A stretch of DNA of 10,006 nt from Octopus vulgaris (Eukaryota), in assembly GCA_951406725.2 (NCBI GenBank), contig CATOCA020000065.1, forward strand, positions 1 through 10,006. Direction: 5' to 3'. The notes below the pieces were generated by a model that saw only the letters and a list, made by a program, of their open reading frames with translations, made no database searches and was not told the origin of the DNA. Made by a program: the position numbers and the translations under genes. Below, in pieces: positions 2 through 10,006 of this stretch. Positions within the stretch are counted from its first letter, which is position 1; each line of letters begins with the position of its first letter.

Positions 2-1677
2 GAGGGACCAGCTATCCGAGTTGATAGTTCCGTGGTAGCTAAGGCAATTAGAAGCATGAAGACAGGGAAAGCCCCAGGCCCATCAGGAATTACTGCAGAG
101 ATGCTCAAAATATCTGGCAGTGTCGGCTATAACCTAGTCACCCGTATAGTCAACCAGGTGATACACGAAGGAGTCATACCCAATGACTGGTGCAGCAGCA
201 TACTAGTCAACTGCTACAAAGGTAAAGGTGATGCCCTAGATACAAATAATTACAGAGGTATCAAGCTGTTGGATCAAGTAATGAAGGTTACGGAGAGGGT
301 CATAGCCCAACTAATTAGAGAGAGAGTTAGTTTAGATGAGATGCAGTTTGGGTTCGTGCCAGGGAAAAGTACCACTGATGCTATATTCCTGGTAAGGCAG
401 CTGCAGGAGAAATACCTAGCCAAAGATAAGCCCCTGTACCTGGCTTTTGTTGACATGGAGAAAGCTTTTGATAAAGGTCCCCCGATCCCTTATCTGGTGG
501 TCAATGAGGAAACTAGGGATAGATGAATGGCTGGTGAGGACTGTGCAAGCCATGTACAGAGATGCCATAAGTAAGGTTAGGGTTGGCAACATGTACACAG
601 AAGAATTCAAAGTAGAGGTTGGGGTCCACCAGGGTTCAGTACTCAGCACCCTCCTATTTATCATAGTCCTCCAGGCAATTACGGAGGAATTCAAGACAGG
701 TTGTCCCTGGGAGCTCCTCTACGCTGACGACCTTGCTCTTATTGCTGAGTCACTATCAGAGCTGGAGGAGAAGTTCCAGGTGTGGAAGGAGGGTTTAGAA
801 TCGAGGGGCCTTAGAGTCAACCTAGCTAAAACCAAAGTACTAATAAGTAGGAAGGTAGACAATCCACAAATGTCTTCAGGAAGATGGCCCTGCTCGATCT
901 GTAGAAAAGGTGTAGGTAGAAACTCTATAAGATGTACCCAGTGTAAGCTATGGACACATAAGAGGTGCAGCAATGTCAAAGGTAGGCTAACTGGGAAGAT
1001 AGTTTTTGTATGTGGCAGATGCTCGGGAGCATTAACCTCCGAAAATCTGCAGAAAACAACTTCCGTCACTTTCCAGGGGGAAAAACTAGAAGTAGTTGAT
1101 AGCTTCCGTTATCTAGGTGACCAAGTCAGTAGTGGGGGTGAGTGCGCTGAAAGTGTAACTGCTAGAATAAGAATAGCCTGGGCAAAGTTTAGGGAGCTCT
1201 TACCTCTGCTGGTGACTAAAGGCCTCTCGCTCAGAGTAAAAGGCAGACTGTATGATGCGTGTGTACGAACAGCCATGCTACATGGCAGTGAAACATGGGC
1301 CGTGACTGCTGAGGACATGCGTAAGCTCGTGAGGAATGAAGCCAGTATGCTCCGATGGATGTGTAATGTCAGTGTACATACTCGACAGAGCGTTAGCACC
1401 TTGAGAGAAATGTTGTACCTAAGAAGCATCAGTTGTGGTGTGCAAGAGAGACGATTGCGCTGGTATGGTCATGTGGCGAGAATGGATGAAGATAGGTGTG
1501 TGAGAAAGTGCCAATCCCTAGCAGTTGAGGGAACCCGTGGAAGAGGTAGACCCAGGAAAACCTGGGACGAGGTGGTGAAGCACGACCTTCGAACTTTAGG
1601 CCTCACTGAGGAAATGACCAGCGACCGAGATCCTTTGGAAATATTCTGTACGTGAGAAGACCAGGCAGGACAAGTGA
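2..1677 (+). pseudogene. Frameshifted reverse transcriptase ORF of the RTE LINE
   Basis: The frame is open from position 2 (EGPAIRVDSSVVAKAIR...). An extra A at 473-475 breaks KAFD/KVPRSLIWW. A second extra base at ~1631-1633 breaks DRD/LWKYSVREKTRQDK*, whose inferred natural stop is TGA 1675-1677. No in-frame stops otherwise. Confidence 0.88.
891..1022 (+). other. PHD-type (C4HC3) zinc finger coding segment inside the RT domain
   Basis: CSIC-x10-CTQC-x4-HKRC-x14-CGRC, with a W two residues before the His. It is in frame between GLRVNLAKTKVL and GEKLEVVDSFRYLG. Confidence 0.8.
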
Positions 1678-2480: not shown

Positions 2481-2774
2481 TATGCACCCCTCACCGCGAT
2501 ACCACTCCACCCGTTCTGTTTCTATTTATATATTCAACAGATTTGATTCGATGAGAGAATTATGTAAATTCTTAAACACCCCCTCCCACCTCTTTGAATC
2601 TATATTTTATGGAAGTATTTTTGGTAATTCTCTCTGCAACAGCTTAAATCTGTGGAACCGATGCAAAATGCCGGAATTATATTTTTCAGCAGTTCATTCT
2701 TAAATGGTGATTTTATTGCGCCGCAAAATAACCGTCATTTTTTTTCCAGCCATTTCTTCTCAATTCCTCTTTCT

Positions 2775-3060
<286 letters not shown>

Positions 3061-3270
3061 TGTCATCGTCATCATCATCATTATCGTCATCAATGGCAGT
3101 GTTATCATTATATGTAATATATTCTTTTTCAGACAACTATCATTGTTATTATCATCATCATCATCATCCTCATCATCATCGTCATCACCATCATCATCAT
3201 CCTCATCATCCTCCTCCTCATCATCATCATCCTAATCGTCATCATCATCATTCTGATCAATGCCATAATG

Positions 3271-3306
<36 letters not shown>

Positions 3307-3425
3307 TTCACCATTGTCCTCATCATCATCATCATCATCATCATCAGCCGTCATCATCATCATCGTCATCATCGTCATCATCATTATCATCATCGTCATC
3401 ATCAGCATAATCATCATCATCGTCG

Positions 3426-3457
<32 letters not shown>

Positions 3458-3465
3458 GTCGTCAC

Positions 3466-3502
<37 letters not shown>

Positions 3503-3520
3503 GTCGTCATCATCATCATA
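3061..3520. repeat. (ATC)n trinucleotide microsatellite
   Basis: CAT/ATC array with GTC/CTC variants and a short interruption at ~3090-3150; source of the poly-H/S/M/D ORFs. Confidence 0.96.
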
Positions 3521-3657: not shown

Positions 3658-3660
<3 letters not shown>

Positions 3661-3699
<39 letters not shown>

Positions 3700-3718
3700 G
3701 TATATGTATATGTATATA

Positions 3719-3807
<89 letters not shown>

Positions 3808-3808
3808 A

Positions 3809-3853
<45 letters not shown>
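3661..3853. repeat. (TA)n microsatellite with (TATATG)n interruptions
   Basis: Read directly from the sequence. Confidence 0.97.
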
Positions 3854-3857
<4 letters not shown>

Positions 3858-3870
3858 AAATAAATAATAT

Positions 3871-3994
3871 AAAATAAATATAAGAGAGTGGTCACTATAT
3901 TAATCACTCTAGCACCAGTTAATCCAAAAGGTTTCAACCACGAAGATACATGTTTCCCATGAAAGCCAGTACGACTGTTAGCTCACACGGACAG
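3871..3994. repeat. 124-bp direct repeat, copy 1
   Basis: aaaataaatataagagagtgg...gctcacacggacag is identical to 4403-4526 on manual comparison. Confidence 0.95.
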
Positions 3995-4106: not shown

Positions 4107-4402
4107 TATCTGGATGAAATCCACTCAATCACACGCCAGATTTTACCATAACGATAAATACGCGTGCGGTTCAATTGATTACATCGGACGTTATAATTCA
4201 AATGCCCCAACCAACAGCGCGCCAAACTCACACGGAAAACAAATACAGCATTTAGAAATAAATGCAGCATAATTATAATTAATTAATAGGGTGAGAGAAT
4301 TAGATACTAATTTAATAGTATATTTATTCCACACCAAGTGGCCTAGTGCTACGAGAAACCTGGATTATTATAATATTTTATAACATATTATAATATTTTC
4401 AC

Positions 4403-4526
4403 AAAATAAATATAAGAGAGTGGTCACTATATTAATCACTCTAGCACCAGTTAATCCAAAAGGTTTCAACCACGAAGATACATGTTTCCCATGAAAGCCA
4501 GTACGACTGTTAGCTCACACGGACAG
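4403..4526. repeat. 124-bp direct repeat, copy 2
   Basis: Identical to 3871-3994, with a 408-bp spacer between the copies. Confidence 0.95.

Positions 4527-4796: not shown

Positions 4797-4800
<4 letters not shown>

Positions 4801-4857
<57 letters not shown>
4801..4857. repeat. (TA)n microsatellite between two convergent HHR-bearing element ends
   Basis: Pure TA run. Confidence 0.97.
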
Positions 4858-4860
<3 letters not shown>

Positions 4861-4926
4861 GGTCCCGGGTTGATTCGGGGTTAACCACAGTAAGTAAGGT
4901 ACTCAATACATAGCAGAGTAAAATTA

Positions 4927-5226
4927 ATTTATTATATAGAAGGAGCTTCTACAGGACTAGTACTGTTTCATTCAAGAGAAATCTTCAGGAAGCTATTTAA
5001 CAAGAATTGTATTAGCATTTATACATTTAGGCAGGTTTAAAGGAGTGGTGGTGGGGGACTTTTGGGGGTAGGCATAGCGCAAAATATCATACTTGGGGGA
5101 GTGGTCAAGGAGTCAGTGGTAAGTTAGATGAAAGAATAGATAAATAAAAAAAAAAAATAAAAATAAAAAAAAATAAAAAATATATATAAAAAAATATATA
5201 TATATAAAAAATATATATATATAAAA
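4927..5226 (-). repeat. Inverted repeat, left arm (pseudo-LTR)
   Basis: Reverse complement of 8246-8566; the inner A-rich boundary is approximate. Confidence 0.93.
4944..4994 (-). ncRNA. Minimal type I hammerhead ribozyme, copy A
   Basis: Minus strand reads AGCUUC-CUGAAGA-UUUC UCUU GAAU-GAAA-CAG UACUAGUC CUG-UA^GAAGCU. Helix I is a perfect 6 bp, helix III is near-palindromic, the triplet is GUA, and helix II is weak (3 bp closed by U-U). Confidence 0.82.
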
Positions 5227-5274
5227 AAAGGGGGGATAGAGTTATAGGTAAATAAGGAGATTCTCACTTATACT

Positions 5275-5318
5275 TATACACATATGTATACGTATCTACA
5301 CACACACACATATATATA

Positions 5319-5362
<44 letters not shown>

Positions 5363-5818
5363 TATATACACATATACATACATATCTACATACACACATA
5401 CATACACCCGCCCACATGTACAAATTTATACACATGCACATGCATATACCTGTCTACACATACACACACGTATATATGCATACACTCACTCCCATGCATG
5501 CACGCATACACACATGTATATATATATATACACACGACCACACATACATATATACACAGAAAAAAATATATTCATACGCACATACACTCATGCACACACA
5601 ACACACCTAGTTCCCTATATACACATATTTACACCTATATATACATACACCCACATACACACATGTACATATATATATATATACACATATATATATATAT
5701 ATACATATACACGCATACATATATATACATATATATACATGTGTGCACATACATACATATACACATATACATACACACACACATACACATGTGTACCTAT
5801 ACATACCTACACATACAC

Positions 5819-5865
<47 letters not shown>

Positions 5866-6254
5866 CCAATACAGGCCCATTCCCTAATTTTAATTTAATT
5901 ATTTTCATTTATTACTTTTGTTATCTTTGATCGCTAGAGCTAAGGATCCTGGCAATGGCAGCATGTCCATTTGTCTGTCTACTAGAAGGCAAGTACTCAT
6001 TCCCGCACGCACACTCATTAGCACGTACATTCACCCATTCGTACACTCATACACATACACGTACGCACGCGTTATATTCATACATACAAACATCTACATA
6101 CGTTCACGTATATACACATACGTACTCGTACCTACAGATTCGTGTCTACACTTTAGGAGGCTAGTCTATACATATACACCAATAAATATACATATATATA
6201 TATACACATATACATACACACACACACATATACTTCTACATACAGATACATACC

Positions 6255-6306
<52 letters not shown>

Positions 6307-6522
6307 CATACATACACATACACACACACATATATATACACACACATACATACACATATATATACATACACAAACATATATACACACATATATATATATA
6401 TATATATACACACATACACACACATACATACATATACACACAAACACATACATACGTATACATACATACATACATCCATACATCCATACTTACATGCATT
6501 TATACGCATACACACACCCCCA

Positions 6523-6565
<43 letters not shown>

Positions 6566-7065
6566 TCACACATACATATACAAATATACGCACACACATA
6601 CATACATACACGTATACGCATACACGCACATACACATATACATGCGTACCCATACACGTGCACACACGCACGTGCATCCATATATATACACACACACACA
6701 TATATACACGTGTGCAAGCATACATACATACTCATACACGCACACATACTTACATATACATATATGCACACACTTACACACATATATACATACACATATA
6801 CATGCATACATACATATATGCATACATACACATACACGCACATACACATATACATGCGTACCCATACACGTGCACACACGCACGCGCATCCATATATATA
6901 CACACACACACATATATACACGTGTGCAAGCATACATACATACTCATACACGCACACATACTTACATATACATATATGCACACACTTACACACATATATA
7001 CATACACATATACATGCATACATACATATATGCATACATACACACACACGCGCACTCATATATAC

Positions 7066-7096
<31 letters not shown>

Positions 7097-7269
7097 CATA
7101 TATATATATATACATATATACACATACACATACATACACACATACATATACATACACATACATACATATATATACATATATACACATATATACACATATA
7201 CACATACATATATACACATATACATACATATACATACACATACATATACACTGATACACATACCCATAC

Positions 7270-7302
<33 letters not shown>

Positions 7303-7388
7303 TATACACATGCATATACTTATATCTCACATACTCACATATAAACATATATATATATACACACATACATATATACATACATGTACAT

Positions 7389-7461
<73 letters not shown>

Positions 7462-7713
7462 TATACACATATACATGTATACATACGCAATAATGATACA
7501 CATATATACACATACACACACACAGACAGATGCATATACATACATATATATATAAATTACATATCTATATAAATACATACATAATACACATATACACACA
7601 CATATATATACATTCATGCATATACATATACAAGTATACATACACATACATACACACACACGCGCACACATACATATACACACACACATATACAAATACA
7701 TACATACACACAT

Positions 7714-7746
<33 letters not shown>

Positions 7747-7780
7747 CATACATGTACACATATACATATGTATATATATA
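5275..7780. repeat. Degenerate (CA)n/(TA)n/(CATA)n low-complexity array
   Basis: CA/TA-rich on the + strand throughout, with a more unique island at ~5861-6185; source of the long Y/I/H/T ORFs. Confidence 0.93.
6619..7042. repeat. 212-bp tandem duplication (2 copies) inside the CA/TA array
   Basis: The landmark catgcgtacc occurs at 6641 and 6853. Copies are 6619-6830 and 6831-7042; one substitution noticed (cacgtgcatcc vs cacgcgcatcc). Confidence 0.88.
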
Positions 7781-7989
7781 TCAACAAGGGAGGGTAAAGT
7801 TAATTAGTTATTAATCAATTTCATCAAGTGTTCAGTATGTAAAGGGACCATTATTATTTTGAGTAAACAATGTTAGAGGGAAAAAAATTCTCTAAGTAGT
7901 GGAAGAGGCTAAAAACTTTATTGGCTGCTATTTCTAGAAAGTTTAGTATGTGGCAAAGTAATTTATTTTATTTTCCTAAGCCCTAATTA

Positions 7990-8110
7990 TATAATATTTT
8001 ATACATACACATACATAAGCACATACATTTACACATACATATGCATATACATATATACACATATACATACAAACACATATACACATATACACACACACAC
8101 ACATACAAGC

Positions 8111-8159
<49 letters not shown>

Positions 8160-8245
8160 AATATATATACATATATATCTTTACATGCATACATACACAC
8201 ACACACACATAATACATGCGTATATTCCTACTGTACCCATGCATA
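7990..8245. repeat. CA/TA microsatellite
   Basis: Read directly from the sequence. Confidence 0.9.
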
Positions 8246-8566
8246 TTTTATATATATATATTTTTTTATATATATATATATTTTTTATATTTTTTATATT
8301 TTTTATTTTTTTATTTATTTTTTTATTTTTTATTTTTTTATTTTTTATTTATCTATTCTTTCATCTAACTTACCACTGACTCCTTGACCACTCCCCCAAG
8401 TATGATATTTTGCGCTATGCCTACCCCCAAAAAGTCCCCCACCACCACTCCTTTAAACCTGCCTAAATGTATAAATGCTAATACAATTCTTGTTAAATAG
8501 CTTCCTGAAGATTTCTCTTGAATGAAACAGTACTAGTCCTGTAGAAGCTCCTTCTATATAATAAAT
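8246..8566 (+). repeat. Inverted repeat, right arm (pseudo-LTR)
   Basis: Reverse complement of 4927-5226; ends immediately after AATAAA (8560-8565) and runs into (TA)n. Confidence 0.93.
8499..8549 (+). ncRNA. Minimal type I hammerhead ribozyme, copy B
   Basis: AGCUUC-CUGAAGA(8505-8511)-UUUCUCUUGAAU-GAAA(8524-8527)-CAGUACUAGUCCUG-UA^GAAGCU; identical to copy A, predicted cleavage after 8543. Confidence 0.82.
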
Positions 8567-8567
8567 A

Positions 8568-8642
<75 letters not shown>
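8567..8642. repeat. (TA)n microsatellite
   Basis: Read directly from the sequence. Confidence 0.95.
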
Positions 8643-9037
8643 CTAACAGTATCGCCCGGCGTTGCTCGGGTTTGTAAGGGAAATAATTATATAAGCATTT
8701 TTAGAGATGTAAAGTATAATAGCCATCTCAATATGGCTAACCACAAAGGGGGAGGGGTGTTACTGTAGCTTTTTACGTTCTGAGATTTAATAATAAATTT
8801 TAGAGAGTTACTTCCCTTATATATGTCAAAAATGGATTAAAAATGGGAAAAATTGATGGTAAATTTTTTTTTAAATCGTAGCCTCATCGTAGACGCGCGC
8901 TAATACCCAGACGGTCTCGATATGAATCACGACTATAAGATACCCGGTTTTGGTTAAACTGCACCGCAAAATGTGGGAGTAGTTAGGAATGTAAATCGTA
9001 GGAGACAGACACACAACCTCACTTTTATATATAAAGA
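8643..9037 (-). mobile_element. Non-autonomous Helitron (395 bp)
   Basis: Minus strand starts TCTTTATATATAAAAG (5' TC at 9037-9036) and ends ...CCCGAGCAACGCCGGGCGATACTGTTAG, i.e. a GC-rich hairpin ~11 nt before a CTAG-like (TTAG) end. It is flanked by A and T with no target duplication and has no Rep/helicase ORF. Confidence 0.85.
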
Positions 9038-9142: not shown

Positions 9143-9465
9143 TTACAGAGATGTACTTGCATAGCAAGTGACTTGATCTGAGATCGTGTGTTGGAACGAA
9201 AACAGTTGCAGCGTTGAAGGTGTTTATAAGCCATTTAAGAAACACACAAAAACCGTTAGATTCACTTCAACATTTAAATTTAATTTGTCAAAATATTTTC
9301 GTCGCTTTGAGACCGCGACCTGTTAGCACGATATTTTTGTCAGTGAACAGGTCGCGGTCTGAAAGCGACGAAAATACTTTTGGCAAATTAAATTTAAATG
9401 TTGAAGTGAATGTAACGGTTTTTGTGTGTTTCTTAAATGGCTTACAAACACCTTCCACGCTGCAA
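9143..9465. mobile_element. Fold-back insertion: inverted pair of truncated PLE-like termini with a one-sided 3' extension
   Basis: Arms 9206-9324 and 9346-9465 are reverse complements (5 substitutions and 1 indel counted) with a 21-nt spacer. The left arm extends ~63 bp further (9143-9205). TA repeats lie on both sides and the right arm carries an HHR-like fold. Confidence 0.7.
9336..9387 (+). ncRNA. Candidate variant type I hammerhead ribozyme (G3-C8 core swap, extra G after A9)
   Basis: UUUGUCA-GUGAACA-G-GUCGC GGUCUGAAA GCGAC-GAAA-A UAC U-UU^UGGCAAA. Helix I is 7 bp (perfect UGACAAA in the other arm), helix II is a perfect 5 bp, and helix III is minimal (palindromic AAUAUU in the other arm). 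Confidence 0.6.
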
Positions 9466-9834: not shown

Positions 9835-10006
9835 AGACCTGGTAGAAACAGCAGCCAAATTTCCCCCAAATCACACCTTACTGTCTTATCTATGTATATA
9901 TATATGTATGAGCCAATGAGGGGGACCTCTACATGGTAGCTAGACCTGGTAGAAATAGCAGCCAAATTTCCCCCAAATCACACCTTACTGTCTTATCTAT
10001 GTATAT
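9835..10006. repeat. Direct repeat of at least 65 bp with period 107 (9835-9899 and 9942-10006)
   Basis: agacctggtagaaa(c/t)agcagccaaatttcccccaaatcacaccttactgtcttatctatgtatat occurs twice with one mismatch; the second copy is cut by the window end. Confidence 0.92.

What the first reader, a model, noticed from the sequence alone, without database searches (positions are those of the whole stretch)
4858..8566. 3.7-kb non-coding element: near-identical inverted ribozyme arms enclosing ~3 kb of microsatellite
Seen: arms 3 kb apart whose unique ~225 bp differ only by a 1-bp indel, each with HHR plus AATAAA facing outward, both ending in (TA)n. The interior is CA-rich on one strand throughout and has no ORF. 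Established: PLE insertions often carry an inverted pseudo-LTR at the 5' end. Inference: one recent retrotransposition event of a non-autonomous PLE whose body is mostly simple repeat, which would make it a vehicle that spreads microsatellite DNA. A read-through transcript could also pair the arms into long dsRNA, a potential ADAR substrate.
Basis: partly seen in the sequence, partly recalled or inferred. Interest (0 to 1): 0.72.

Follow-up and report, generated by a model that had tools for sequence, protein, structure and literature searches.

The report
Inverted pair of truncated Penelope-like retrotransposons
The 3.7-kb stretch is two 5'-truncated copies of a very young, high-copy Penelope-like retrotransposon joined head to head inside a (TA)n microsatellite, its "microsatellite" interior being the element's own long low-complexity untranslated region; this is an already described kind of insertion, likely made in a single event.

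Summary
Arms 4927-5148 and 8342-8566 match apart from a 1-bp homopolymer indel, and each carries a hammerhead-like motif and AATAAA facing outward next to (TA)n.

The interior is not free microsatellite. Its unique islands and low-complexity spacers recur in fixed order beside the same arm at many loci. In longer copies they run into an RT + GIY-YIG ORF on the opposite strand. The element is therefore a Penelope-like element (PLE) with the marks of the Hydra clade: DKT, a CxCX5C linker and (TA)n targeting.

- Window 4858-8244 is one 5'-truncated copy (sense on the minus strand) made only of the 3.4-kb pseudo-LTR/3'UTR.
- Window 8245-8566 is a second, inverted, 0.32-kb copy.
- The extra 69 nt at the left end (4858-4926) is the known PLE "tail". 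It sits at exactly one outer end in 32 of 32 resolved inverted pairs.

The family is autonomous, so "non-autonomous PLE" is wrong for the family, though the window copy has no ORF. The hammerhead motif has a complete core and is far from chance, but Rfam misses it, helix II is weak, and no insertion shows a cleaved template.

In passing: 584 mini-palindromes mark a discrete template 5' end 29 nt below a TATAAAT.

Verdict: a new member of a known kind, of modest interest.

The parts
4800..4857 (.). (TA)29 target microsatellite, left flank
   Evidence: TRF reports period 2, 29 copies, 100% matches. In 29 of 30 other loci the same element end abuts TA repeats.
4858..4926 (-). PLE 'tail': a 69-nt 3' extension of the long copy, absent from the right arm
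   Evidence: It is absent from the right arm. It sits at exactly one outer end in 32 of 32 resolved inverted pairs. In ORF-bearing copies it lies directly upstream of the ORF leader. It matches the 'tail' described for PLEs.
4927..5148 (-). Left arm core: the 3' end of the long copy's pseudo-LTR. On the minus strand it holds TATAAAT (5017-5023), the hammerhead-like motif (4944-4994) and AATAAAT (4927-4933).
   Evidence: Alignment, descriptor scan and direct reading of the sequence.
5149..8244 (-). Body of the long copy, which is the low-complexity pseudo-LTR/3'UTR. In order: A-rich tract 5149-5225, island 5226-5280, island 5861-6185, a 212-bp tandem unit within 6546-7067, island 7781-7990, island 8205-8244.
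   Evidence: The order and spacing are fixed in 70 + 19 loci. It aligns end to end at 95-97% identity to L112, L116, L117 and L118. Other copies continue past 8244 into EN and RT ORFs on this strand.
8244..8245 (.). Inner junction between the 5'-truncated ends of the two copies
   Evidence: The window departs from six other copies right after ...CCCATGCAT. The junction was not verified by reads.
8245..8566 (+). Short inverted copy. It comprises a T-rich tract (8245-8341) and the arm core (8342-8566), which holds TATAAAT 8470-8476, the inferred template 5' end 8499-8501, the hammerhead-like motif 8499-8549 (predicted cut after 8543) and AATAAAT 8560-8566. It has no tail.
   Evidence: plus the sequence.
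8567..8642 (.). (TA)n target microsatellite, right flank
   Evidence: TRF reports 8555-8642, period 2, 45 copies, 90% matches.

Best explanation
Window 4858-8566 is two 5'-truncated copies of one young, high-copy Penelope-like retrotransposon (PLE) lying 5'-end to 5'-end with their 3' ends outward in a (TA)n microsatellite, likely the product of a single integration in which both cut target strands primed reverse transcription.

**Shown.**
- The long copy (4858-8244, sense on the minus strand) is only the element's 3.4-kb low-complexity pseudo-LTR/3'UTR.
- The short copy (8245-8566, sense on the plus strand) is the last 0.32 kb of the same region.
[quoted passage not shown] That ORF bears marks described for the Hydra clade of PLEs.
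- The same pseudo-LTR also stands in direct orientation upstream of the ORF.
- Copy number falls from the 3' end to the 5' end.
- Every resolved inverted pair has the 69-nt tail at just one outer end.

**Inferred.**
- The endonuclease cuts both strands of a (TA)n tract.
- Reverse transcription starts at one of two internal sites, after AAUAAAU or 69 nt further on after ...CCUAC.
- The two cDNAs run inward, stop at different points, and are joined.
- Each arm would also carry an outward-facing promoter (TATAAAT, start about 29 nt downstream) followed at once by a hammerhead-like motif. Whether that motif cleaves is not known.
For: **The arm and the interior are one repeat.**
- The arm is a dispersed repeat: at least 1036 candidates, with 40 of 40 scored at about 100% identity.
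- Islands 5861-6185 and 7781-7990 have at least 1232 and 922 candidates, with 40 of 40 scored at 99-100% each.
- Tail, core and the four islands lie in a fixed order across the loci.

**The family carries a PLE ORF.**
- Beyond the last island, L072 and siblings carry EN (225 aa) and RT (385 aa) frames on the opposite strand.
- L097 has one 718-aa frame with SDKT, CNCHDKTTC, YRDDG and YIGMTSNSFKTRW. These fit the Hydra-clade description: DKT, a CxCX5C linker and (TA)n insertion.
- 1086 homologues were found at E<=1e-5. They are about 700 aa long, and some are annotated GIY-YIG.

**Structure of the copies.**
- A direct pseudo-LTR lies upstream of the ORF (e.g. L125).
- 5'-truncation gradient: 1878 exact hammerhead 39-mers, 409 copies of the island-2 40-mer at up to 2 mismatches, and 96 candidates for the RT 5' part.
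- One tail per pair in 32 of 32 pairs, although single ends split 10 with tail to 10 without.

**Literature.**
- PLE insertions are 5'-truncated and form partial tandems. They often have an adjacent inverted copy and a tail at one end only (passages of PMC8557442).
- A PLE protein cuts and extends both strands and initiates at two internal sites that delimit the tail (main text of PMC11167929).
Against: - The window is a whole unplaced contig of only 10,006 bp.
- The inner junction 8244|8245 could not be checked with reads.
- Pfam finds neither RVT nor GIY-YIG in the ORF. The protein call rests on motifs, homologues and the Atlas leads.
- No target-site duplication can be read inside (TA)n.
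- The two arms differ at a homopolymer that is polymorphic in the family. Only 10 of 13 pairs agree there, so one template RNA for both arms is not shown.
- The unit (about 5.7-5.9 kb) is twice the length given for Hydra elements (<3 kb).
- No phylogeny was made.
Confidence: 0.88

Rival explanations
1. Two independent insertions of the same PLE family landed in one (TA)n tract, in opposite orientation, and happen to abut.
For: The family has about 1900 copies and a strong (TA)n preference. The arms differ at the polymorphic homopolymer. Back-to-back separate insertions do occur (L017).
Against: 32 of 32 resolved inverted pairs have exactly one tail, although single ends are 10:10; independent hits would give about half concordant pairs. 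No (TA)n remains between the two copies at 8244|8245. The second insertion would have had to land exactly at the first one's 5' end.
Confidence: 0.06
2. This is a non-autonomous, retrozyme-like PLE derivative whose body is microsatellite, mobilised in trans.
For: The window copy has no ORF. Most copies hold only pseudo-LTR sequence (against 20). A preprint abstract links animal retrozymes to PLE pseudo-LTRs (10.64898/2026.07.22.740005; abstract and outline only).
Against: The same sequence is collinear, at 99-100% identity in its islands, with ORF-bearing copies. No copy was seen in which the pseudo-LTR forms a unit of its own without being a 5' truncation. The inner ends are scattered, as in 5' truncation. 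There are no short tandem hammerhead monomers.
Confidence: 0.04
3. It is an assembly artefact or a foldback-type DNA element, not a retroelement insertion.
For: The contig is 10 kb, unplaced and almost all repeat. PLE structures are said to trouble assemblies.
Against: The same architecture, with unequal arms, is found at more than 30 loci on contigs of 118-226 Mb. The arms are very unequal (3.4 kb against 0.32 kb), unlike a symmetric read-through palindrome. The ORFs, the 5'-truncation gradient and the pseudo-LTR all fit a retroelement.
Confidence: 0.02

Closest known systems
Hydra clade of Penelope-like elements (Craig et al. 2021, PMC8557442), including Hydra-1_Obim of Octopus bimaculoides
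   Same: - A single ORF of about 700 aa with a C-terminal GIY-YIG domain.
- DKT in place of DKG, and a CxCX5C linker.
- Insertion into (TA)n.
- A sense-strand hammerhead motif about 100 nt from the 3' end, with the same CUGAAGA heptamer and a 4-bp helix III.

Sources.
   Different: - The unit here is about 5.7-5.9 kb because of a 3.4-kb low-complexity pseudo-LTR. The paper gives <3 kb for the clade, and 2507 bp with 'no pLTR' for Hydra-1_Obim.
- The protein is only loosely similar by eye to the printed Hydra-1_Obim excerpt. No alignment or tree was made.
- Helix II here is 3 bp plus U.U, against 7 bp there.
Poseidon PAc of Anolis carolinensis, studied in vitro (Frangieh et al. 2024, PMC11167929)
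   Same: - Both target strands are cut and extended.
- Reverse transcription starts at two internal sites whose interval is the genomic 'tail'.
- The target is AT-rich.
- Uncleaved RNA is the template.

These match the outward 3' ends, the tail and tail-less ends, the (TA)n flanks and the 0 of 11 junctions at the hammerhead cut site seen here.
   Different: - It belongs to a different clade.
- Its tail is 30-40 bp and its start sites lie inside the ORF. Here the tail is 69 nt and both sites lie upstream of the ORF.
- In vitro no strand difference in start site was seen. Here each insertion has exactly one tail.
Animal (non-LTR) retrozymes
   Same: They carry a type I hammerhead in a PLE-related repeat. 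An origin from PLE pseudo-LTRs has been proposed.
   Different: Retrozymes are tandem 150-300-bp monomers that give circular RNAs. Here there are dispersed, 5'-truncated, inverted copies of an autonomous element, with no tandem monomers.
L1 twin-priming inversions
   Same: A second priming event on the other target strand gives an inverted 5' segment.
   Different: In L1 the two segments are different parts of one RNA, and only one carries the 3' end (recalled, not checked here). Here both copies carry the element's 3' end and overlap in sequence.

Membership tests
Penelope-like elements (EN+) | One ORF with a reverse transcriptase and a GIY-YIG endonuclease | tested here: met
   This is met in sibling copies, not in the window itself. 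L097 has a 718-aa frame with YRDDG and ...VYKCEV...YIGMTSNSFKTRW. Homologues and Atlas neighbours carry PF01541 and PF00078. Pfam on the ORF itself gave nothing.
Penelope-like elements (EN+) | Pseudo-LTR: a partial tandem with a 5'-truncated copy upstream of the ORF | tested here: met
   A direct island2-island1-core-tail series stands immediately upstream of the ORF in 12 of the 27 ORF-anchored loci, and more show core and tail only. L125 shows pLTR-ORF-pLTR.
Penelope-like elements (EN+) | Frequent adjacent inverted 5'-truncated copy | tested here: met
   Seen in the window, in 15 further long pairs, and in 584 short-pair junctions genome-wide, 16 of which were inspected.
Penelope-like elements (EN+) | [quoted passage not shown] | tested here: met
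   32 of 32 resolved pairs have it at exactly one end. The tail is 69 nt here, against 30-40 bp in the literature.
Penelope-like elements (EN+) | Hammerhead ribozyme in the pseudo-LTR | tested here: inconclusive
   **For.** Complete core and three helices by a relaxed descriptor, rare by chance. It lies on the sense strand, at the same place as in Hydra-1_oBim. The two subfamily changes fall on N7 and loop III.

**Against.** No Rfam hit, a weak helix II, folding no better than shuffles, and no cleaved-template junctions.
Hydra clade of PLEs | DKT motif, CxCX5C linker, insertion into (TA)n | tested here: met
   SDKTKNIY and CNCHDKTTC in L097. (TA)n lies at both ends of the window insertion and of 16 of 16 mini pairs.
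Hydra clade of PLEs | Loss of the CCHH motif in the EN, and phylogenetic placement with Hydra references | not tested
   No alignment with reference PLE sets and no tree was made. The reference sequences were seen only in a paper's supplement and were not entered into tools.
Hydra clade of PLEs | Short element (<3 kb) | tested here: not met
   The unit is about 2.2 kb of leader plus ORF, and about 3.3-3.5 kb of 3'UTR/pseudo-LTR.
Non-autonomous PLE derivative / retrozyme | A family without a coding partner of the same sequence, with short tandem hammerhead monomers | tested here: not met
   ORF-bearing copies share the same pseudo-LTR at 99-100% identity in its islands. No tandem monomers were seen.

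The most novel reading that the evidence does not exclude
The family's about 1900 near-identical insertions record the integration chemistry of a Hydra-clade PLE.

- Exactly one tail per insertion (32 of 32) would mean the two reverse-transcription start sites are each used once, one per target strand, by a single (dimeric) complex. They would not be picked at random, as in-vitro data suggested.
- The 584 mini-palindromes would map the element's mRNA 5' end to the first base of hammerhead helix I, 29 nt below a TATA box. The ribozyme would then be the very 5' leader of an outward-firing promoter at every insertion end.
- The 3.4-kb CA/TA-rich pseudo-LTR would make this PLE a seeder of microsatellite-like DNA.
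Probability: 0.3. Interest if true: 0.55.

Novelty: new member of a known kind. Interest (0 to 1): 0.33.

Why it matters
For annotation, a 3.7-kb "non-coding palindrome with microsatellite" turns out to be an ordinary PLE insertion. Its CA/TA interior should be masked as transposon, not scored as microsatellite.

For transposon biology, the family is unusually clean material: about 1900 copies, with islands 99-100% identical. It could be used to study PLE integration through three features:
- the strict one-tail rule;
- the discrete template 5' end;
- the absence of any trace of hammerhead-cleaved templates.

It also shows that a Hydra-clade PLE can carry a multi-kilobase low-complexity pseudo-LTR. 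Short-read work reported "no pLTR" in a related octopus element.

Each long copy adds up to about 2.4 kb of repeat-like DNA. The total is small, however: a few hundred copies reach 1 kb or more.

Tried and rejected
1. **SINE reading.** My first reading was a tRNA-like head GTAGGTCCCGGGTTGATTCGGGG with an A-rich tail on the + strand. I dropped it when the sequence proved collinear with an ORF on the other strand and the 'head' proved to be the 3' end.
2. **Rfam.** The hits were only microRNA-like matches on CA/TA repeats, all below their gathering scores. No hammerhead appeared among the best 150 of 169 matches on the window (19 lower-scoring ones not shown) or at E<=10 on the arm.
3. **Thermodynamic folding** of the motif and of the 137-nt leader: the energies were not better than shuffles (z -0.42 and -0.82), and the MFE of the leader is not the hammerhead fold.
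4. **Pfam** on the ORFs gave nothing meaningful.
5. **Reads.**
   - The second, on 8170-9000, skipped the repeats 8170-8362 and 8555-8651, so the junction, the flanks and expression stay unverified.
   - The 8 raw reads laid are too few to use.
   - It did show that 8646-9000 is itself very high-copy, and that the arm core is in contigs of runs labelled organism A and organism B.
6. **Same template for both arms?** The only polymorphic core site is a slippery homopolymer. 10 of 13 pairs agree, which is not decisive.
7. **Are hammerhead-cleaved RNAs used as templates?** There are 11 inverted junctions near the cut site and none at it. Palindrome-driven joining as the cause of the 584 junctions was rejected: only 17 junctions fall in loop III (5 at ACTAGT) and 3 at the AGCT near the cut site.
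8. **The search of earlier findings**, by place and by sequence, showed nothing.
9. **A 'tail-only' partner in L117** was a threshold artefact. The partner is a short arm that starts inside the hammerhead.
10. **Bacterial promoter/terminator scan** is irrelevant here.
Full report
**1. The observation**

The window is a whole unplaced contig of 10,006 bp. Aligning 4800-5300(+) with the reverse complement of 8200-8660 shows two arms, 4927-5148 and 8566-8342. They are identical except for one base in a T4/T5 run.

Both arms end outward in AATAAAT and TA repeats: (TA)29 at 4800-4857, and 45 units at 8555-8642. The left arm has 69 extra bases (4858-4926) between AATAAAT and its (TA)n.

Each arm holds one match to a relaxed hammerhead descriptor, at 8499-8549(+) and 4944-4994(-). 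It reads AGCUUC / CUGAAGA / UUUC-UCUU-GAAU / GAA / ACAG-UACUAGUC-CUGU / A | GAAGCU.
- The descriptor hit once in 300 shuffles of the window.
- In 1.22 Mb of fetched loci it hit nothing but this motif and four variants of it (130 of 130).
- Rfam reports no hammerhead among the best 150 of 169 matches on the window (19 lower-scoring ones were not shown) or at E<=10 on the arm.

About 70% of the interior is called tandem repeat. Its long open frames are translations of CA/TA repeats.

**2. The arm and the interior are one dispersed repeat**

| Segment | First-look candidates | Scored copies |
|---|---|---|
| Arm 4858-5150 | at least 1036 | 40 of 40 at about 100% |
| Island 5861-6185 | at least 1232 | 40 of 40 at 99-100% |
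| Island 7781-7990 | at least 922 | 40 of 40 at 100% |

In 70 loci the parts stand in one order: tail, core, A-rich tract, island 1, island 2, island 3, island 4. Spacing is conserved:
- island 1 to island 2 is about 580 or about 146 bp;
- island 2 to island 3 is mostly 1350-1410 bp.

The whole left copy aligns end to end with four other copies at 95-97% identity, with indels of 4-224 bp in the low-complexity stretches. The islands are not single-copy, and they travel with the arm.

**3. What the repeat is**

Copies longer than the window's continue past island 4 into two frames on the opposite strand:
- a 225-aa frame with a Cys-rich linker and a GIY-YIG core;
- a 385-aa reverse-transcriptase frame (YRDDG).

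Of the 27 copies holding the exact anchor among the 30 loci fetched with the RT 5' part, one (L097) has a single 718-aa frame through both domains. One has 680 aa, and nine have a 506-aa frame that ends before the endonuclease.

The sense strand of the window's long copy is therefore the minus strand. The GTAGGTCCC end is the element's 3' end.

In sense orientation the same island 2 - island 1 - core - tail series also stands directly upstream of the ORF, about 45 nt before the ATG. It is truncated at various points (L125). That is a pseudo-LTR.

Counts fall from the 3' end to the 5' end:

| Probe | Count |
|---|---|
| Exact hammerhead 39-mer | 1878 |
| Island-2 40-mer, up to 2 mismatches | 409 |
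| RT 5' part, first-look candidates | 96 |

The window's own island-2 variant is unique in the genome.

The ORF has SDKT, IRWR and CNCHDKTTC. Craig et al. 2021 (passages and sections 6, 11 and 20 read, plus supplement tables) describe the Hydra clade of PLEs:
- a C-terminal endonuclease;
- DKT in place of DKG;
- a CxCX5C linker;
- canonical hammerheads;
- insertion into (TA)n in almost all families;
- members in Mollusca.

Their Hydra-1_Obim (2507 bp, (TA)n, "no pLTR") has a sense hammerhead about 100 nt from its 3' end, with the same CUGAAGA heptamer.

Homology search gave 1086 proteins at E<=1e-5. They are about 700 aa long, and the best are 37-52% identical. A few are annotated GIY-YIG. Atlas neighbours carry GIY-YIG, RVT_1, HTH_animal and DUF8422 (leads only). 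Pfam on the ORF itself gave nothing. No tree was made.

**4. The architecture in the window**

The long copy runs 4858-8244. At 8244|8245 the window departs from six other copies and enters the T-rich start of a second copy in the opposite sense (8245-8566). Both 3' ends face outward into (TA)n.

This is the structure that Craig et al. describe for PLEs: 5'-truncated copies, often with an adjacent inverted 5'-truncated copy, and a 30-40-bp 'tail' often at one end only.

Frangieh et al. 2024 (main text read) showed four things for a Poseidon PLE protein:
- it cuts and extends both target strands;
- it starts reverse transcription at two adjacent internal sites whose interval is the tail;
- it prefers AT-rich DNA;
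- it uses uncleaved RNA.

The 69 nt at 4858-4926 are this tail.

*One tail per pair.* I resolved 32 inverted pairs:
- the window, L011, L021, L025 and L028;
- 11 of 19 ten-kb stretches around island-2 hits;
- 16 of 16 short pairs picked by spacing alone.

All 32 have the tail at exactly one outer end. Yet single ends in island-2-selected loci split 10 with tail to 10 without.

*Left out of the count:*
- L110, L119 and L125 (one end outside the stretch);
- L109, L113 and L123 (no inverted partner found);
- L120 and L121 (3' end missing or complex);
- L003, L010, L017, L083, L086, L104 and L105 (complex, or partner's end out of range).

Random pairing would give about half discordant pairs. The pairs therefore arise as units, and a single event for the window is likely.

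Whether both arms copy one RNA is open. The only polymorphic core site is a homopolymer. 10 of 13 pairs agree there, and the window's pair does not.

**5. The hammerhead**

*For:*
- a full catalytic core, three helices and the sense strand;
- the position matches the annotated motif of Hydra-1_oBim;
- it is rare by chance;
- an older subfamily (37 copies, 93-96% identical to the young core) differs at 9 of 225 core positions. Two lie in the motif, at N7 and in loop III, both free positions. A third variant adds two loop II changes;
- loop III holds the palindrome ACUAGU, which could extend helix III in a dimer. PLE hammerheads are reported to act as dimers (review PMC7761336, passages).

*Against:*
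- no Rfam match;
- helix II is 3 bp with a U.U at 10.1-11.1;
- folding energies are no better than shuffles;
- of 11 inverted junctions near the predicted cut site, none lies at it.

The last point agrees with the report that unprocessed RNA is the template. It gives no support for cleavage. I rate activity as open.

**6. A by-product: the template's 5' end**

There are 584 junctions genome-wide, against 0 for the reversed control. In each, two inverted arms meet 2-10 nt upstream of CUGAAGA. Of the 50 on contig C1, 18 read GAAGCTTC and 16 read GAGCTTC or its complement.

Only 17 junctions fall in a 13-nt window in loop III, 5 of them at the ACTAGT palindrome. Only 3 fall at the AGCT near the cut site. 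Palindromic microhomology therefore does not explain the peak.

The arms thus start at 8499-8501-type positions. That is the first bases of helix I, and 29 nt downstream of TATAAAT (8470-8476).

I infer a promoter in the pseudo-LTR whose transcript begins with the hammerhead. The mini pairs would then be reverse transcripts of the short leader. This is inference; no RNA data could be laid. If right, both arms of the window fire outward. A hairpin RNA pairing the arms would then need read-through from outside. The ADAR idea was not tested.

**7. Limits**

- The locus lies on a 10-kb unplaced contig.
- The junction and flanks could not be checked with reads.
- No target-site duplication can be read in (TA)n.
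- Clade assignment rests on motifs, not on a tree.
- Supplementary sequence files of Craig et al. were seen only as excerpts.

**8. Verdict**

This is a new member of a known kind: a Hydra-type PLE family with an unusually long, repeat-like pseudo-LTR. The window shows it as a standard inverted pair of dead-on-arrival copies.

Noticed in passing
G000 genome-wide; e.g. L159-L174 (contig C1): 584 mini inverted pairs of the same PLE join 2-10 nt upstream of CUGAAGA, each flanked by (TA)n and carrying one tail. They point to a discrete template 5' end 29 nt downstream of a TATAAAT in the arm (window 8470-8476 and 8499-8501).
   Followed up: partly
L080-L105 (RT-bearing copies of the family): Of 27 copies, nine share a 506-aa RT frame that ends before the endonuclease, which then continues in another frame. 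One copy has a single 718-aa frame and one has 680 aa. Whether the split is a shared defect or is read through was not examined.
   Followed up: no
L121:6545-6790 and L129-L158: An older subfamily of the same PLE has at least 1733 first-look candidates. Its copies are 93-96% identical to the young arm core and carry CUGAUGA instead of CUGAAGA. The family has therefore been active over a longer time.
   Followed up: partly
window 2-1652 (+): A fragment of a non-LTR retrotransposon: RVT_1 (E 2e-9 and 3e-14) in two frames, split by a frameshift near 420-526, followed by a PHD-like finger (E 2e-4).
   Followed up: partly
window 8646-9000: The right flank of the insertion is itself a very high-copy repeat. 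Its word depth in contigs of three runs is as high as, or higher than, that of the PLE arm.
   Followed up: no
window 9206-9465: A near-perfect palindrome: 88-nt arms, 95% complementary, 84 nt apart, with further pairing inside. It looks like a hairpin or MITE; the Rfam microRNA matches are below threshold.
   Followed up: no
window 3847-3994 and 4379-4526: A direct repeat of 148 nt (93% identity), 532 nt apart start to start, enclosing AT-rich unique sequence. It may be the ends of another small element.
   Followed up: no
window 2760-3520: About 750 bp of (ATT)n passing into (ATC)n trinucleotide repeat, with further TA/TG/CA microsatellites at 1860-2500 and 3660-3850. Almost the whole contig is repeat.
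   Followed up: no
window 9835-9899 and 9942-10006: A 65-nt direct repeat (98% identity) running into the contig end.
   Followed up: no
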